Virus record (IMG/VR): IMGVR_UViG_3300030202_003256
Span: 1,388 to 65,387 of that record
DNA: 64,000 bases
Direction: 5' to 3' (one strand)
Origin: a virus
Taxonomy: Duplodnaviria > Caudoviricetes
The notes under the pieces were generated by a model. The model was given only the letters and a program-made list of their open reading frames with translations, ran no database searches and had not been told where the DNA came from. Made by a program: the position numbers and the translations under genes. Numbering within the stretch: the first letter of the stretch is position 1; the number at the start of each line of letters is the position of its first letter. Shown here piece after piece: positions 1,226 through 35,571 of the stretch.

Positions 1226-1513
1226 ATGGAATTCTTTAAAAACATGTTAAGTAGTGAAGGTAAAGTATCTAGTAAAAGATTTGTTACTTTCGTATGTCTT
1301 CTATTTATGTTAATTGGTTATACAGCAAATCTTTTTTGGGATTTCACAATTGACGATAATTTATTCGAGTCTTTACAATGGATTGTAATGGCAGGACTTG
1401 GTTTTACAGCTGCAGAAAATTTTTCACCGAAAGATGAGATTGTTGTAGAGGAACCAGAACCTAGTAGAACTGTTGTAACTCACGAATATGATTATGATGA
1501 GGAAGATATCTAA
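1226..1513 (+). CDS. Two-TM membrane protein, holin-like
   Basis: GKVSSKR followed by two hydrophobic segments and an acidic tail. Confidence 0.55.
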   Translation: MEFFKNMLSSEGKVSSKRFVTFVCLLFMLIGYTANLFWDFTIDDNLFESLQWIVMAGLGFTAAENFSPKDEIVVEEPEPSRTVVTHEYDYDEEDI

Positions 1514-1518
1514 AAAAC

Positions 1519-1546
1519 AAAAACCACTCGAAAGAGTGGTTTTTTT
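1519..1546. terminator. Bidirectional intrinsic terminator
   Basis: aaaaaccactc-gaaa-gagtggttttt between convergent genes. Confidence 0.9.
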
Positions 1547-1572
1547 ATATCCTTATTTTAACTAACTATTAT

Positions 1573-1638
1573 TTAACAGTCACAACAAGTACAGTCACAT
1601 TTTGTGCCACACTCACATACTTTACAATCACATTTCAT
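1573..1638 (-). CDS. 21-aa Cys-rich metallothionein-like peptide MKCDCKVCECGTKCDCTCCDC (not in ORF track)
   Basis: Hand translation; 9 Cys in CxC/CC spacing; A-rich leader; sits just before the terminator. Confidence 0.75.
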   Translation of the reverse strand: MKCDCKVCECGTKCDCTCCDC

Positions 1639-1664
1639 AGTTTTTAATTTTTAAGTTTTGTTTA

Positions 1665-2162
1665 TTATCCTTTAGCTGCGTGAAAAGCATCTAGTATTTC
1701 CTCACAATGTTTTTTACTATCACATTTTCTCCACACTCCACCTTTTTTATTGTTAAGAACAACCCATCCAGAACCTCTTTTTTTAATACAACCTGAACCA
1801 CCTTCAGATTCTGCACATCCTTTACCTTCTTGTTCTAATAAATTTTTCTTAATTCTAGAGATTAATCGTGATTCTTTTACACTTTCCATAGCATCTTCTT
1901 GATTTAAACCATCTTGAGTTTCATCATCTACATTAAGATTTAATGTTTCTTCACTAACTTCATTTTCATTATCATCCACATCATCCTCTTCGATATCTTC
2001 TTTTTCTAAAAGGTCTTTATATTTTGCTGTTGGTGTTCCCATTAAACCAAAGTTTTGTCCATTACCATTACCTATGGCTGAAGAAGCAAAACCTATATTT
2101 TCTTTAACTAGTTTTTCTATTAATTCTACTAGTTCATTTTCTTTAATTTTTATTTTTTTCAT
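1665..2162 (-). CDS. Acidic hypothetical protein with small Cys-containing C-terminal domain; possible internal head protein
   Basis: N-terminal KIKIKENELVELIEKLVKE tag, acidic linker. Confidence 0.6.
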   Translation of the reverse strand: MKKIKIKENELVELIEKLVKENIGFASSAIGNGNGQNFGLMGTPTAKYKDLLEKEDIEEDDVDDNENEVSEETLNLNVDDETQDGLNQEDAMESVKESRLISRIKKNLLEQEGKGCAESEGGSGCIKKRGSGWVVLNNKKGGVWRKCDSKKHCEEILDAFHAAKG

Positions 2163-3664
2163 AATTGATTAATTATTTGGAATTTTATTGCTTTTCTATA
2201 AGTATCTACTTGTTGATTAGAAGTCGCTTTAATGTCTAGGTAATATTCGTTAGGAATCATCCACCCAGTGTCTATAAGTAAATAATTATGTTCGTTACCC
2301 ATGTTTACTTGTGACCATGGAATTACCTCTACTTGTGTTGTTCCTTGTGTAACATAAACCCTGTATTGTAAATTATCCACTAATACTTGTTGGTCTGTTG
2401 TGTAAGGTACTCTTGTAGAAATAAAGACTTTCCTTGTTTCACCACTACTTATTTTTTCATCTTCTTTAATACCAGAAACAGAATACCCATATACTTTAGG
2501 TTGAGCCGCGGTTGGTCCTATAGAAAAAGCGTTATCATAGATTATAAACTCATTTTCAACATTAGGTTGTGTTACACCACCAATATCAATACCTGACCAC
2601 ACATCTTCATATAGAACTGGTGTTGATTGGCCTGGTGGCAGTGATGATAGTGTTAGTTCCACATAATAAACACCACAAGTTAGTTTCTTAACTGTTAAAT
2701 TAGCAACTAGATTACCATTACAGTCAAGTATTTGACATTTAGGAAGTTTATCTAAACATATTGGTTGACCATTGTGGTCTGAAACGTAAAGAAAAAGCCT
2801 ATTTAACTTAAAAAGACTAAAATTATTTCTATTATCGACAATATGGTCATCCCAAGAGGTCTCTAAGAAAGGTTCAAAAAAAGTTTGGGTGTACCTAGTA
2901 AAAAATCCAACAGAATAAGATTCTGTTATACCAGTTATATTTTCATAAGCACCACTAAAAGCAATACCGTAAGTAGTACCAGAAGTTAGATTGGTACTTG
3001 CGGTTAATAAAAAATTAATTTCATCATCTAAAGCTTGAGAAGAAAAATTAATATTTTCATTACCATTATCAAAATGTTGTATGTCCAAAATATCATAACT
3101 AGTATTTAAAGTATTAAGGTAAGTACCTGGGTAAGTCCATTGAGATAGTGTAGTACAAGAAAACCAATGACTTGGTCTTGTAGAGTAAGTAATATCAAAC
3201 TCTGGTTCAAATATACCGTCAGGTACTAAATAATCATAACCAACACCTTCATCCCAACTATGACCACTTACAGCTTTAAATAAAATTAAATCAAATGATG
3301 TTGCCCTTCTAGTGTCATTAACTAAAACTTTGTCATTTAATAATTTATCGTCAAAATTAGAAGTATTGGTCATTTTTAACGTGTGGGTAGTCCCAGTAGC
3401 ACTAAGTGTAATACAACAATCATTAACCTTCTCTCTTAAATCTTCCAGGTCTAAATCAAAAATAAACCTACTAAACCCTTCAGTAACAGAACTGGTAAAA
3501 CCTGATTGGTTATTACAACTGTCCCCAGAAAGTCCAGTAAATATACATGTGGGGTATGGACTTTTACCATAAAATAATTGCGTAACAGGGTTTTTAGCTG
3601 TATTTACGTAACTATTAGCAATTATTGTATTATTTTTACTAAAATAGGACCTATGTATTGACAT
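2159..3664 (-). CDS. Putative virion structural protein (beta-rich)
   Basis: 501-aa ORF, late-type motif upstream, S/T/G-rich segments. Confidence 0.6.
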   Translation of the reverse strand: MSIHRSYFSKNNTIIANSYVNTAKNPVTQLFYGKSPYPTCIFTGLSGDSCNNQSGFTSSVTEGFSRFIFDLDLEDLREKVNDCCITLSATGTTHTLKMTNTSNFDDKLLNDKVLVNDTRRATSFDLILFKAVSGHSWDEGVGYDYLVPDGIFEPEFDITYSTRPSHWFSCTTLSQWTYPGTYLNTLNTSYDILDIQHFDNGNENINFSSQALDDEINFLLTASTNLTSGTTYGIAFSGAYENITGITESYSVGFFTRYTQTFFEPFLETSWDDHIVDNRNNFSLFKLNRLFLYVSDHNGQPICLDKLPKCQILDCNGNLVANLTVKKLTCGVYYVELTLSSLPPGQSTPVLYEDVWSGIDIGGVTQPNVENEFIIYDNAFSIGPTAAQPKVYGYSVSGIKEDEKISSGETRKVFISTRVPYTTDQQVLVDNLQYRVYVTQGTTQVEVIPWSQVNMGNEHNYLLIDTGWMIPNEYYLDIKATSNQQVDTYRKAIKFQIINQL

Positions 3665-3679
3665 TGAGTATCTTTATAT

Positions 3680-3687
3680 AATAAATA
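3680..3687 (-). promoter_or_regulatory. Putative late promoter TATTTATT
   Basis: 15 nt before ATG 3664. Confidence 0.55.
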
Positions 3688-3688
3688 T

Positions 3689-33357: not shown

Positions 33358-35571
33358 ATGGGAACACAAAATTTAAACAACTTTTATTTTAATAGGTTAG
33401 ATGGTAAACTAGATTATAGTTCTTACTATGATATATTTTTAGCTTCAGACGAAAAAGATTTTAACAGTGATGTTATCTGGTCTCCAAAGATAATTGATTA
33501 TGATAATGGAGAAAAGTTACCTGTATGGATAGACTTAAATACTACAGCCTCCACCCAACCAATAACAGATTGTAGTTACCAATACCCAACAGGTTTAACA
33601 CCTAGTTATTATACTGATAGTGGTTTTACACCTTTTGTTATTATAAGTAATAATAGTTGGCCTCACGCAAAATCTATGTGTGATTGTCCTTACACAGGTT
33701 TGGGATATACTATAAGCGATATTCTTTGGACTGGTTTAGATAACGGACTACTTAATCCCAAGGAAGTTTCAACAGGAAATTACTATATAGATTTATTTGA
33801 CGAGTTACCACCATCATTAATATATGATAAACAATCATATGACAAAAGGTTTAAAATGCACCAAGTAAAAGCCTATGGTTTTCCGTGGTGGGCTAATACA
33901 TTTTATACAGATACAACAATATTAAACAAGACAGATTATTCTGGGTACTACCAAGAACTAAAAGGTGGTTTCTATCAAGGATTTTATAAATTATATGGTT
34001 ATCCTTATGAGGTATTACCAACAAGACCTAAATGTGGGTGGTCATTTGAAACCTACCTTAAATTAAATACTATTTGTACTGATATTAATGGACCAGATTC
34101 ACCCTTAATTGAGGATGGCTTATCAACATACGGTGTTTACGGTAATTGTTACAATACTAGTGGTTGGTATAAGAATACTATGGGAGCTACTGGTGTAATA
34201 ACACCATTATGTAGTGCCAACCCAACAGCTTATACATATAGTTCAATTGGTCCAGAATACACTTTTAATTACAGTGCGTGGAACGGGTCCGGGATGACCA
34301 TAGGTAGGACAGATAAGTATGGTTTCTTTTTTTATAAAGGAATTAGAGCTGAAGATAAGTGGTTTCATGAAGATATGTCTTATTCTGCTTTTTCTGAGTG
34401 TGAAACTTTAACTGGTGAAACTAGTTGTTGTTATGAATGTGTGGAGACTGGGGTAGTTACTGATATATGTGATGGTCAAACAGGATTCACCACTAGTTTA
34501 GAAGACCCAGTTAAGCTGACAGGAGAAAATAAATCACCAACAGCCCAATATGATGTATACAGTAATGCAATTGGATTTAGAATTACTGATGATATGAGGA
34601 TTGGTTATAGAACTATTAGGTATACGGGTGGGTGTCAAACAACTGGAAGAACTATGTCTACTGAAATTGAAATGCAAGGGTACACTATTGATGGTCCGGA
34701 GGTGATTTCTGATTGTTATACTGGTAGTAGTTTTGATTGTGGGTATACGATAGAAGAAAGTTATTCTGAACCTATATGTGCTTTTATGACACGTAGTGGG
34801 GACTGTGCATCAAATTGGATACAGGTTGATGTGGTATTCAAAAGAAACATGTGTATGGAAGATTGTGAAATATACAACAATGGGGGAGTAAACGACCTGG
34901 TCAAGGTTAGAACAGACAGATTCCAAAGATACGGAAGACACGTAGAGACTGGTGGTGGACCTTTTGGTTGTCACCCTGAAACACCCTCAGAACCAAAACC
35001 AACCTGTAAAGATGAATATCCTTCTTTTATAGATGAGGCTTACTTTGATTTTACATGCCATGGAGCAAACGTACAACGGTGGTTCGACGAACACGAATAT
35101 AGAATGGGTACATTAACTTTTTATGTTAATGGTAGAAGGGTTCACGAAGTAAAAGATTATGAAGAAATAATACCTAGACAGTTAAATACAAATAAGCAAA
35201 CTCAGGTTGGTGTTGCTTACAACATGTCTTGGGGTGGTGGTGCTATGGGACTAAGAGAAAGTCTTATTACAGATATGGATGGGTGTACTAGTGGTTGTTG
35301 TTCAGCTTTAACATCTAATACTAGTAGTCTAATACAATGGTCCGGGGAAACAGACCAAAGACTAATTATGGAAAATTTTGCAGGTTCTTTTATCGGTGGT
35401 ATTTCACAAATGATGTACTACATAAAACCTTTAACCCCTGATGAGATTTATCATAATTTTTTAATAAATAAACAAAGATATAAACTTATAGATTGTGAGG
35501 AGTGTAAAAATTGTTACGATGGATGTGTAGACTGCAATTTAGAAAATAATCCACCACCATCAGCTTGTTAA
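33358..35571 (+). CDS. Cys-rich virion protein, probable LamG/concanavalin-like fold
   Basis: WSFETYL, LTFYVNG, FIGGISQMMYYIKPLTPDEI; many Cys. Confidence 0.6.
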   Translation: MGTQNLNNFYFNRLDGKLDYSSYYDIFLASDEKDFNSDVIWSPKIIDYDNGEKLPVWIDLNTTASTQPITDCSYQYPTGLTPSYYTDSGFTPFVIISNNSWPHAKSMCDCPYTGLGYTISDILWTGLDNGLLNPKEVSTGNYYIDLFDELPPSLIYDKQSYDKRFKMHQVKAYGFPWWANTFYTDTTILNKTDYSGYYQELKGGFYQGFYKLYGYPYEVLPTRPKCGWSFETYLKLNTICTDINGPDSPLIEDGLSTYGVYGNCYNTSGWYKNTMGATGVITPLCSANPTAYTYSSIGPEYTFNYSAWNGSGMTIGRTDKYGFFFYKGIRAEDKWFHEDMSYSAFSECETLTGETSCCYECVETGVVTDICDGQTGFTTSLEDPVKLTGENKSPTAQYDVYSNAIGFRITDDMRIGYRTIRYTGGCQTTGRTMSTEIEMQGYTIDGPEVISDCYTGSSFDCGYTIEESYSEPICAFMTRSGDCASNWIQVDVVFKRNMCMEDCEIYNNGGVNDLVKVRTDRFQRYGRHVETGGGPFGCHPETPSEPKPTCKDEYPSFIDEAYFDFTCHGANVQRWFDEHEYRMGTLTFYVNGRRVHEVKDYEEIIPRQLNTNKQTQVGVAYNMSWGGGAMGLRESLITDMDGCTSGCCSALTSNTSSLIQWSGETDQRLIMENFAGSFIGGISQMMYYIKPLTPDEIYHNFLINKQRYKLIDCEECKNCYDGCVDCNLENNPPPSAC

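What the first reader, a model, noticed from the sequence alone, without database searches (positions are those of the whole stretch)
1573..1638. Phage-encoded 21-residue, 9-cysteine metallothionein-like gene
Seen: minus-strand ORF MKCDCKVCECGTKCDCTCCDC-stop with 9 of 21 residues Cys, all TGT, arranged as CxC and CC, with no aromatic residues. It has an A-rich leader (aaacttaaaaattaaaaaact-ATG) like other genes here and is the last ORF before the terminator at 1519-1546. Known: CxC/CC spacing with K/D/T/G spacers defines metallothioneins, and the vertebrate beta domain uses 9 Cys per metal cluster. Inference: a minimal Cu/Zn/Cd-binding peptide made late in infection, possibly buffering metals for a Cys-rich virion. 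It is below normal gene-calling cut-offs, so it would usually be missed.
Basis: partly seen in the sequence, partly recalled or inferred. Interest (0 to 1): 0.85.

Follow-up and report, generated by a model that had tools for sequence, protein, structure and literature searches.

The report
Tiny nine-cysteine phage peptide gene
A 21-codon gene that gene finders miss is real and conserved in many marine phages and in their likely Bacteroidota hosts; its nine fixed cysteines suggest a miniature metallothionein-like metal-binding peptide, but metal binding has not been tested.

Summary
Observation confirmed. The minus-strand ORF 1573-1638 encodes MKCDCKVCECGTKCDCTCCDC. Nine Cys in 21 codons was reached by none of 300 dinucleotide shuffles, whose maximum was 7.

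It is a real gene.
- Six related phage contigs keep it at the same site. All nine Cys are fixed, the spacers vary, and pN/pS is 0.12.
- The same scan found 36 contigs of marine low-GC Bacteroidota, most of them chromosomal.
- A test that does not depend on the pattern, anchored on a host neighbour gene, found the ORF in 15 of 22 loci, with pN/pS 0.23 and synonymous TGT/TGC changes.

No library knows the peptide: Pfam, NCBIfam and PHROGs gave no hit, and 0 of 10 peptides are in a 15-billion-protein collection.

Best reading (about 0.6): a cytoplasmic metallothionein-like thiolate peptide. Metal binding, the metal, the timing of expression and any link to the virion are all untested. Neighbouring genes give only weak metal hints: a cupin-fold partner, Zn-ribbon neighbours and one cupin-peptide fusion.

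The scan has flagged other metallothionein-like micro-ORFs on other DNA, but none with this sequence.

The parts
1573..1638 (-). Mini-gene: 21 codons plus TAA, encoding MKCDCKVCECGTKCDCTCCDC (Cys at 3, 5, 8, 10, 14, 16, 18, 19, 21)
   Evidence: Conserved at the same site in 6 related contigs with pN/pS 0.12. The family alignment A2 has only the 9 Cys invariant.
1639..1669 (-). A-rich leader without a Shine-Dalgarno motif (aataaacaaaacttaaaaattaaaaact). It is conserved with the gene as part of a roughly 100-nt cassette.
   Evidence: Alignment A1. The same type of leader precedes the second-site copy L246. The relative L004/L084 lacks the leader, ORF and trailer cleanly.
1509..1544 (-). Intrinsic-terminator-like hairpin (11 pairs) with a T-run. 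It lies between the convergent minus-strand operon and the plus-strand 95-aa gene.
   Evidence: Conserved in relatives. Predicted hairpin in the fold.
1665..2162 (-). Upstream 165-aa gene. Its stop lies 26 nt before the mini-gene ATG. Its C-terminal module with 4 Cys (C-x8-C-x22-C-x5-C) recurs at the ends of proteins in other phages.
   Evidence: No significant Pfam, PHROGs or NCBIfam hit.
2159..3664 (-). 501-aa gene overlapping the 165-aa gene start by 4 nt. It is probably the first gene of the operon 501-aa, 165-aa, mini-gene, terminator. It is a widely conserved phage protein of unknown family.
   Evidence: 590 relatives in IMG/VR. No Pfam hit.
3674..3688 (-). Promoter-like AT-rich motif (atatttattatataa), 10-25 nt upstream of the 501-aa gene. 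It belongs to a type seen by eye upstream of about a dozen genes in the window.
   Evidence: The exact form TATTTATAWA is not enriched by count: 6 found against 4.24 expected. This is a weak inference only.

Best explanation
The ORF is a real, translated micro-gene. It is the last cistron of a minus-strand operon (501-aa gene, 165-aa gene, mini-gene, terminator).

Its product is a 21-residue cytoplasmic peptide whose only constrained feature is nine cysteine thiols in the spacing CxC-x2-CxC-x3-CxC-x-CC-x-C. The most likely mechanism is that of a metallothionein. The unstructured peptide wraps around several soft metal ions and forms a metal-thiolate cluster. By analogy with Cys9 domains this would be about three Zn(II)/Cd(II) or several Cu(I) ions. 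It would thereby buffer, store or hand over metal in the infected cell.

The family is shared between streamlined marine Bacteroidota (chromosomal copies) and their phages, where it is an accessory, movable cassette.

Shown: the gene is real, it is under purifying selection on the Cys frame, and it has the stated distribution and composition.

Inferred: translation in the phage, metal binding, the identity of the metal, and the benefit to the phage.
For: (1) Coding selection at the same site. The window plus 5 distinct relatives (the L008 copy has the same peptide as L007) keep frame, start and stop. The only length change is a 3-nt indel. There are synonymous changes at Gly, Thr, Lys, Asp and Cys codons, and pN/pS is 0.12.

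(2) Test independent of the pattern. Loci were anchored on a 119-aa host neighbour gene in one genus (34 genomes, 22 loci). Of these, 15 of 22 carry a 21-aa ORF 13-25 nt downstream, with 9 Cys in identical positions. TGT/TGC varies at 8 of 9 Cys positions, no Cys is replaced, and pN/pS is 0.23.

(3) Breadth. There were 36 Bacteroidota-labelled contigs among 40 hits in 185,579 species genomes. Of 37 examined, 21 lie in a housekeeping context (GlnA-like, Na/Ca exchanger, pirin, MsrA) on contigs of up to 1.1 Mb.

(4) Metallothionein-type composition. Cys makes up 42.5%. The spacers are N, K, S, T, D, G and E. One of 122 distinct peptides has an aromatic residue and one of 122 has His. Only the 9 Cys are invariant in alignment A2. 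There is no signal peptide or leader.

(5) The only sequence matches, all sub-threshold, are to metallothioneins: wheat Ec-1 (2kak, E 6.8) and Pfam Metallothio_2 in 14 of 97 members (best E 0.33).

(6) Weak metal hints from context.
- In 12 of 80 phage loci the start overlaps the stop of a roughly 90-aa protein with invariant His, Glu and Asp. Its AF2 model (pLDDT 88.9) matches cupins, with 43 PDB chains at E<=0.001.
- In L234 this protein is fused in frame to the peptide.
- In 16-17 of 80 loci a protein with a CxxC...CxxC motif follows 9-11 nt downstream.
- The window's own upstream protein ends in a 4-Cys module.
Against: - No experiment of any kind bears on the function.
- No metal transporter, metal sensor or other known metal-homeostasis gene lies beside the gene. 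I checked 26 phage and 23 host neighbour representatives.
- Contexts are heterogeneous. The host neighbours (MsrA, pirin, glyoxalase, FMN reductase) point as much to redox or oxidative stress as to metals.
- There is no significant homology to any metallothionein family, so the resemblance is one of composition and spacing.
- The absence of aromatics at 4 of the 10 spacer positions was imposed by my search pattern.
- RNA-library contigs of 4 runs cover neighbouring genes but not 1536-1871, so transcription is not shown.
- The gene is dispensable. 3 of 9 close relatives lack it at this site, and 5 of 5 more distant relatives lack it altogether, three of them at least 91% complete.
- The cupin homologues of the isolates immuto and Melnitz are not followed by it.
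Confidence: 0.6

Rival explanations
1. A thiol or redox peptide rather than a metal store. The nine thiols would act as a sacrificial or recyclable scavenger of oxidants or electrophiles, or as the substrate of a disulfide oxidoreductase, with metal binding incidental.
For: Host copies lie near MsrA, pirin, glyoxalase-fold and FMN-reductase genes. In 17-20 of 80 phage loci a roughly 430-aa FAD/NAD(P) Rossmann protein follows 100-126 nt downstream, while the upstream genes differ. That protein has a Pyr_redox_2 N-terminus, matches phrog_12409 'dehydrogenase' and is like COG2509/FAD-depend_C.
Against: The FAD proteins are 67-100% identical to each other, so the linkage may be lineage synteny. 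The window itself has no such neighbour. The strictly fixed CxC/CC spacing is what cluster geometry demands; simple scavenging would need only the number of thiols. Metallothioneins themselves also scavenge oxidants, so this rival overlaps the main reading.
Confidence: 0.14
2. An iron-sulfur or sulfur-trafficking helper. The peptide would transiently carry Fe-S clusters, persulfide or iron for cluster assembly.
For: An archaeal 33-aa peptide that fits the same Cys spacing lies between a class-V aminotransferase (cysteine-desulfurase type) and DUF1858 plus NifU_N genes.
Against: This is one locus in another domain, with a different N-terminus, found by pattern only. No isc, suf or nif genes lie beside the 80 phage or 36 Bacteroidota copies examined by representatives. 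From what I recall, CxC/CC spacing is not typical of Fe-S ligation.
Confidence: 0.07
3. Precursor or substrate of a peptide-modifying enzyme (RiPP-like), for example by thioether cross-linking or processing of the C-terminal Cys.
For: It is small and Cys-rich and always ends in Cys. An earlier scan note (e1-1484599, unchecked) describes CxC-repeat precursors beside a radical-SAM enzyme in another organism.
Against: There is no leader: Cys1 is at residue 2-5. No maturase family appears among 26 phage and 23 host neighbour representatives. Only 7 of 448 neighbouring ORFs of at least 150 aa carry CxxxCxxC. None of those is radical-SAM-like: one is the L234 fusion and the other six carry an N-terminal MCxCGCNxC tag. 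Genomic contexts differ widely.
Confidence: 0.07
4. Not a functional peptide: a Cys-codon-rich regulatory mini-ORF (attenuator type) or an RNA or DNA element whose reading frame is incidental.
For: Leader, ORF and terminator are all strongly conserved at the nucleotide level among the closest relatives.
Against: pN/pS is 0.12 and 0.23 with third-position changes, and Cys positions are invariant while TGT/TGC varies. The gene lies at the end of an operon facing a convergent gene, so there is nothing downstream to attenuate. The exact Cys spacing is kept across 122 distinct peptides in unrelated contexts. No Rfam match reaches a gathering score; the best is 32.8 bits against 54, on the terminator. 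The fold z-score is -1.89 and is due to the terminator.
Confidence: 0.03

Closest known systems
Beta-domain of vertebrate metallothionein (Zn3Cys9 cluster; abstract start of PMC10243857 as listed; Cys spacing recalled from memory)
   Same: Nine cysteines arranged mostly as CxC pairs. Polar spacers (K, S, T, D, N, G). No aromatic residues. Only the Cys are conserved.
   Different: 21 residues against about 30. It stands alone rather than being one of two domains. It has a CC doublet and a C-terminal Cys followed directly by the stop codon. It is from phages and bacteria. There is no detectable sequence homology: no Pfam Metallothio hit.
Fungal Cu(I)-thioneins such as the Neurospora crassa metallothionein (about 25 aa, 7 Cys; recalled, not fetched)
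   Same: A single-domain, minimal peptide with CxC motifs that is little more than the metal cluster's ligand set.
   Different: Nine rather than seven Cys, and even shorter. Prokaryotic or viral origin. No copper-responsive regulator or other copper gene lies nearby.
Bacterial metallothioneins SmtA/BmtA and MymT (PMC7558416, section 4.3 read)
   Same: Small cytoplasmic Cys-rich bacterial proteins. MymT was likewise a non-annotated small ORF.
   Different: According to the review, SmtA has a zinc-finger fold and MymT is a 4.9-kDa protein. The present peptide is about 2.2 kDa, shows no Pfam or NCBIfam match and occurs in Bacteroidota and phages, which the review does not list as metallothionein carriers.
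Wheat Ec-1 metallothionein (PDB 2kak) and plant Pfam family Metallothio_2 (PF01439)
   Same: These are the only library matches of the family profile or its members. The aligned stretch is C-x-C-G-x-x-C-x-C-x-x-C.
   Different: The matches are far below significance: E 6.8, and best E 0.33 in 14 of 97 members. This is shared composition, not shown homology.

Membership tests
Metallothionein (operational superfamily: small, Cys-rich, metal-thiolate cluster proteins; definition from PMC7558416 section 4.3 and recalled criteria) | Low molecular weight | tested here: met
   21 residues in the window. Family lengths are 20-23 aa in 122 distinct peptides.
Metallothionein (operational superfamily) | Very high Cys content with conserved CxC / CC motifs | tested here: met
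   Cys is 42.5-42.9% of residues. All nine Cys columns are invariant in alignment A2. The same holds in the sets that do not depend on the pattern.
Metallothionein (operational superfamily) | Few or no aromatic residues or His | tested here: met
   1 of 122 distinct peptides has Tyr and 1 of 122 has His. Caveat: my pattern excluded T-initial codons at 4 of the 10 spacer positions.
Metallothionein (operational superfamily) | Binds several metal ions in thiolate clusters | not testable with these tools
   Needs peptide chemistry (ESI-MS, UV/CD, ICP-MS). The complex predictor asks for chains of 30 residues or more, so I did not use it.
Metallothionein (operational superfamily) | Genomic or regulatory link to metal homeostasis | tested here: inconclusive
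   No transporter or metal sensor appears among 26 phage and 23 host neighbour representatives. There are only indirect hints: a cupin-fold partner overlapping the start in 12 of 80 loci, one in-frame fusion, and Zn-ribbon-like neighbours.
Sequence-defined metallothionein families (Pfam Metallothio families including PF00131, PF01439, PF02069; NCBIfam) | Significant match to the family profile | tested here: not met
   The window peptide gave 0 families at E<=1 in Pfam and in NCBIfam. For the 97 members, only PF01439 matched, in 14, with best E 0.33.
RiPP precursor peptides (for example radical-SAM-modified Cys-rich precursors) | Leader or recognition sequence plus an adjacent maturase gene | tested here: not met
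   Only 0-3 residues lie between Met and Cys1. No maturase family is present among the neighbour representatives. The crude CxxxCxxC scan hit 7 of 448 ORFs, none radical-SAM-like.
Attenuator leader peptides | Lies upstream of the regulated genes, with alternative terminator and antiterminator structures | tested here: not met
   It is the last ORF before a terminator facing a convergent gene. The Cys spacing, not merely the Cys count, is conserved.

The most novel reading that the evidence does not exclude
This is the shortest natural metallothionein family found so far (20-23 residues, one Cys9 cluster). It would be the first encoded by viruses, and the first metallothionein family of Bacteroidota as far as the review I read lists carriers. 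Marine phages would carry it as a movable roughly 100-nt cassette to take over the metal economy of the infected cell. They could capture Zn or Cu freed during host breakdown and hand it to phage metalloproteins, such as the small cupin whose gene overlaps it or is fused to it.
Probability: 0.45. Interest if true: 0.85.

Novelty: new variant of a known kind. Interest (0 to 1): 0.75.

Why it matters
Bacterial metallothioneins are described as rare, known mainly from SmtA/BmtA and MymT (PMC7558416, section 4.3). In six full-text searches I found no phage-encoded one (listings only).

This gene family is abundant in marine viral contigs and in uncultured, streamlined marine Bacteroidota, yet it is absent from every protein library I queried, because it lies below gene-calling length limits.

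If it binds metal, it adds trace-metal buffering to the list of host functions that ocean phages carry. It would also give chemists a natural 21-residue Cys9 cluster peptide that can be made by synthesis and tested within days. Finally, it is a concrete case of how much conserved biology sits in ORFs shorter than 30 codons.

Tried and rejected
- tblastn of the peptide (residues 2-21) against 50,697 phage records found no match, probably because of the low-complexity filter. blastn with the window cassette and with another member's gene found only A-rich or terminator noise. So no cultured phage carrier was found with these queries.
- The isolates Flavobacterium phage immuto and Methylophilales phage Melnitz have the cupin homologue but no match to the Cys pattern anywhere in their records.
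- The search for homologous proteins refuses queries under 40 aa. The representative, Atlas and structure tools need at least 30 aa, so the peptide could not be searched or folded there.
- RNA libraries: contigs of 4 runs cover 1245-1503, 1880-2228, 2360-2911 and 3086-3311, but nothing covers 1536-1871. This is no evidence either way.
- Sampling at order and family level (301 genomes each) for the host anchor protein found only 1 and 2 genomes. Only the genus-level search was informative.
- The loose Cys pattern mostly returned poly-Cys (TGY-repeat) junk, including giant-virus MAGs. Ten true members were picked out by eye.
- The three high-GC actinobacterial hits in the genome scan are long or poly-Cys frames, so I dropped them as chance.
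- The profile of the cupin-like partner gave nothing against PDB sequences or Pfam. Only the fold search identified it.
- The Rfam hits are sub-threshold matches to the terminator.
- A T4-type late promoter reading of the leader (AATAAATA) was considered and dropped. The recurrent upstream motif in this window is of the TATTTATA type, it is absent before the mini-gene, and it is not enriched by count.
- Complex prediction was not used. The peptide is below the recommended 30 residues, and a metal cannot be the scored partner.

Full report
THE OBSERVATION

On the minus strand, an ATG at 1638-1636 opens a 21-codon frame that ends in TAA at 1575-1573. It reads MKCDCKVCECGTKCDCTCCDC. Nine of the 21 residues are Cys, all TGT, spaced CxC-x2-CxC-x3-CxC-x-CC-x-C.

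The ORF follows the stop of a 165-aa gene (1665-2162) by 26 nt. That gene overlaps the end of a 501-aa gene (2159-3664). After the ORF comes an 11-pair hairpin with a T-run at 1544-1519. Beyond the hairpin, a 95-aa gene and the Gp23-type major capsid gene (Pfam E 1e-63) run the opposite way.

The window is nearly all of a 65,387-base IMG/VR virus record rated about 20% complete. Its GC content is 31.8%. The nearest isolate is Flavobacterium phage vB_FspM_immuto, which matches only in the capsid gene at 75.9% nucleotide identity.

The Cys density is not a chance product of composition. The maximum over 300 dinucleotide-preserving shuffles was 7 Cys per stop-free 21-codon frame, reached in 3 of 300. 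None reached 8, against 9 observed.

IT IS A GENE: CLOSE RELATIVES

I fetched relatives through the 501-aa neighbour: 590 confirmed stretches, of which the best 80 were kept. I also fetched relatives through the 165-aa neighbour (17 loci). I then scanned all of them for Cys-dense frames.

Six contigs (L002/L082, L003, L006, L007, L008, L014) carry the ORF at the same site. Their 501-aa protein is 59-93% identical to the window's.

In these copies all nine Cys are kept, while the spacers change (K/Q/E, V/I, E/K, K/T, D/E, T/S). The only length difference is one codon after the ATG. There are synonymous changes in Gly, Thr, Lys, Asp and Cys codons. The Nei-Gojobori pN/pS over the six distinct copies is 0.12.

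Three other close relatives (L004/L084, L005 and the L009/L083 contig; 67-70% identity) lack it. In L084, leader, ORF and trailer (about 100 nt) are cleanly missing between the conserved AATAAATAAAAC and the terminator. The same contig has a copy elsewhere (L246), behind a paralogue of the 165-aa protein.

Five more distant relatives have no copy anywhere in their records. Three of them are 272-380 kb and 91-100% complete. The mini-gene is therefore an accessory, movable cassette.

A LARGE FAMILY

A DNA pattern that fixes only the nine TGY codons returned mostly poly-Cys repeats, but also ten unrelated contigs with peptides of the same design.

I then used a stricter pattern: non-T first bases at four spacer codons, and a stop directly after the last Cys.

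Among these there are 91 distinct peptides. Their lengths are 21 aa (55), 22 aa (22), 20 aa (11) and 23 aa (3), with the ATG 0-3 codons before Cys1 and A-rich leaders. Two longer forms also exist, of 36 and 30 aa.

The same pattern over one genome for each of 185,579 prokaryote species gave 40 stretches:
- 36 lie on contigs labelled as marine Bacteroidota (Flavobacteriaceae, Cryomorphaceae, Cytophagales/Marinoscillum, single-cell genomes).
- 3 are high-GC actinobacterial frames, which I dropped as chance.
- 1 is archaeal.

One Bacteroidota hit (L362) looks like a phage copy, and one (L343) has no ATG nearby.

Of the 37 low-GC loci, 21 share a housekeeping neighbourhood on contigs of up to 1.1 Mb: a GlnA-like gene, a Na/Ca exchanger, a 119-aa unknown protein, the mini-gene, a lipoprotein, pirin, MsrA and DUF6174. 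These are chromosomal genes of small genomes (0.6-1.4 Mb).

The other hosts show at least three further contexts: FMN reductase with an M20 peptidase, a glyoxalase-fold protein, and dienelactone hydrolase.

Host loci have a median GC of 29% and phage loci 31%.

Phage and host peptides form recognisable subtypes. Phage peptides mostly start MK and have Gly at spacer 9 (73 of 91). Host peptides mostly start MD and have no such Gly. No peptide is shared between the two sets.

A TEST THAT DOES NOT ASSUME THE PATTERN

The pattern scans fix the Cys by construction. I therefore anchored on the 119-aa host neighbour instead.
- A sample of 301 genomes from the order gave 1 genome with a match, and a sample of 301 from the family gave 2.
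- The genus (34 genomes) gave 22 loci in 21 genomes.
- Reading whatever lies downstream of the anchor, 15 of 22 loci have a 21-aa ORF starting 13-25 nt after the stop. These are the loci with anchor identity of 62% or more. All have nine Cys in the same positions.
- The 7 loci with 52-58% anchor identity have no such ORF.

Among the 15 copies, TGT and TGC alternate at 8 of the 9 Cys positions, no Cys is ever replaced, the spacers are highly variable, and pN/pS is 0.23.

This all-or-none pattern with synonymous turnover is what a translated, selected peptide gives. It is not what an RNA element or a codon-counting leader ORF would give. Rfam has nothing above threshold here. The modest fold z-score of -1.89 is due to the terminator.

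UNKNOWN TO THE LIBRARIES

The peptide matches nothing in Pfam, PHROGs or NCBIfam. None of 10 family peptides, looked up exactly, is among about 15 billion predicted proteins.

The family profile (A2: 97 distinct sequences, only the 9 Cys invariant) finds one PDB chain, the wheat Ec-1 metallothionein, at E 6.8. When members are scanned singly, they touch only Pfam Metallothio_2, in 14 of 97 with best E 0.33. These are matches of composition, not evidence of homology.

Six literature searches, of which I saw the listings only, turned up no phage or Bacteroidota metallothionein. I read section 4.3 of the review PMC7558416. It calls bacterial metallothioneins rare and names SmtA and its homologues, and MymT.

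Earlier notes of this scan describe other CxC-rich micro-ORFs in other organisms (unchecked, different lengths). None is a sequence look-alike of this one.

WHAT IT MOST LIKELY DOES

The peptide has no signal sequence and no leader. It is 42.5% Cys. It has polar spacers (N, K, S, T, D, G, E). One of 122 distinct peptides contains an aromatic residue and one contains His. One caveat applies: four of the ten spacer positions could not hold T-initial codons, by the design of my pattern.

Selection acts on the thiols and their spacing and on almost nothing else. That is the signature of a metallothionein, whose fold is dictated by the metal-thiolate cluster.

The Cys9 count equals that of the Zn3Cys9 beta-domain of mammalian metallothionein (abstract start of PMC10243857, listed). 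I therefore read it as a minimal single-cluster metallothionein-like peptide. The metal is open: Zn/Cd or Cu(I).

THE GENOMIC SURROUNDINGS

The genomic surroundings neither prove nor exclude this reading. No metal pump or sensor was seen among 26 phage and 23 host neighbour representatives. There are, however, indirect hints.
- In 12 of 80 phage loci the mini-gene start overlaps the stop of a roughly 90-aa protein, by an ATGA or an 11-nt overlap.
- That protein has invariant His, Glu and Asp residues. Its AF2 model (pLDDT 88.9) matches cupins, a typically metal-binding fold, with 43 PDB chains at E<=0.001.
- In L234 this protein and the peptide are fused in one 154-aa frame. This is a single case and could be an assembly error.
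- In 16-17 of 80 loci a 163-aa protein with a CxxC...CxxC motif starts 9-11 nt downstream.
- The window's own upstream protein ends in a 4-Cys module that recurs in other phages.

Against over-reading these hints: the cupin homologues of the isolates immuto and Melnitz are not followed by the peptide.

RIVAL READINGS

A redox or thiol-scavenger role fits the host neighbours (MsrA, pirin) and the FAD/NAD(P) protein that follows in 17-20 of 80 phage loci. Those FAD proteins are 67-100% identical to one another, so the linkage may simply be inherited.

An Fe-S or sulfur-trafficking role is suggested only by the archaeal variant, which lies between a cysteine-desulfurase-type gene and NifU.

A RiPP precursor is unlikely. 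There is no leader and no maturase, and 7 of 448 neighbouring ORFs carry CxxxCxxC with none radical-SAM-like.

A non-coding or attenuator role is contradicted by the substitution pattern and by the gene's position at the end of the operon.

EXPRESSION

Expression is not shown. The mini-gene has no promoter-like motif of its own. The 501-aa gene has an AT-rich motif of a type seen by eye before about a dozen genes, but this motif is not enriched by count: 6 against 4.24 expected. Co-transcription with structural-looking genes, and hence late expression, is therefore an inference.

RNA-library contigs from four runs cover neighbouring genes but not the mini-gene, which says nothing either way.

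VERDICT

This is a real, widespread and unannotated micro-gene family shared by marine Bacteroidota and their phages.

The metallothionein-like reading is the best supported (about 0.6), but it rests on composition, spacing and weak context.

It is a new sequence family of a known kind. If metal binding is shown, it would be the smallest member of that kind and the first found in a virus.

Noticed in passing
L225:3066-3350(-), L248:3066-3326(-) and 9 more (alignment A3): A roughly 90-aa phage protein family with no Pfam or PDB sequence match (WHRDxEDR ... HRxIKGTGxLKxKI). Its stop overlaps the mini-gene start in 12 of 80 loci. The AF2 model (pLDDT 88.9) has a cupin fold. Homologues exist in Flavobacterium phage immuto and Methylophilales phage Melnitz, but there without the peptide.
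   Followed up: yes
L234:533-997(-): An in-frame fusion of the cupin-like protein with the nine-Cys peptide (154 aa). In its relatives L231 and L239 the two genes overlap in different frames. It may be a real fusion or an assembly frameshift.
   Followed up: partly
L357:3004-3105(-) and neighbours: In an archaeal MAG, a 33-aa Lys-rich peptide with the same Cys spacing lies between a class-V aminotransferase (cysteine-desulfurase type) and DUF1858 plus NifU_N genes. This may be an Fe-S-assembly-linked Cys peptide.
   Followed up: partly
L230:3175-4470(+) and 16-19 similar loci: A roughly 430-aa FAD/NAD(P) Rossmann protein (Pyr_redox_2 N-terminus, phrog_12409 'dehydrogenase', COG2509/FAD-depend_C-like) follows the mini-gene by 100-126 nt in one phage lineage, although the upstream genes differ. 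Its function is unknown.
   Followed up: partly
L239:2448-3722(-), L266:625-1821(+), L243:1558-2184(+), L260:1185-1808(+), L234:852-1970(-): Proteins of 207-424 aa with no Pfam match, all starting with the tag MCxCGCNxC(D/E)T...LNES. They lie close to the mini-gene, and upstream of the cupin gene in L239.
   Followed up: partly
L340-L378, about 40-50 nt after the host mini-gene stop: In about 20 host loci a conserved near-palindrome AAAGTTATTAACAATTT sits just before a TAnnTTTG-like box and a 141-aa lipoprotein gene. It looks like an operator in the promoter of that downstream gene. The regulator is unknown.
   Followed up: no
window 1665-1830(-); L085-L087, L092: The C-terminal module of about 55 aa in the 165-aa protein (four Cys, ...GWVxLNNKKGGVWRKCDSKKHCEEILDAFHA) recurs at 62-75% identity at the ends of otherwise different proteins in other phage contigs. 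Its N-terminal part is also multi-copy (L093-L098).
   Followed up: partly
L084:3390-3450 against window 1545-1670: A clean presence/absence polymorphism of the roughly 100-nt leader-ORF-trailer cassette between conserved flanks. A second-site copy exists in the same relative (L246).
   Followed up: partly
L238:3001-3111(-): A 36-aa family member with an extra N-terminal CxCxxCxC half-repeat (13 Cys), showing that the motif can duplicate internally.
   Followed up: no
window 33358-35571(+): A 737-aa protein with about 31 Cys. Homologues occur beside the 501-aa gene homologues in L010-L012. This is the only hint of a Cys-rich structural protein in the window.
   Followed up: no
window, upstream of 1226, 3664, 8048, 33304, 33358, 35601, 40920, 41423, 43262, 48675, 49830, 52383: A recurrent AT-rich motif of the type (A/G)TATTTAT(A/T)A lies 15-25 nt before start codons and may be a phage promoter. 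The exact form is not enriched by count (6 against 4.24 expected).
   Followed up: partly
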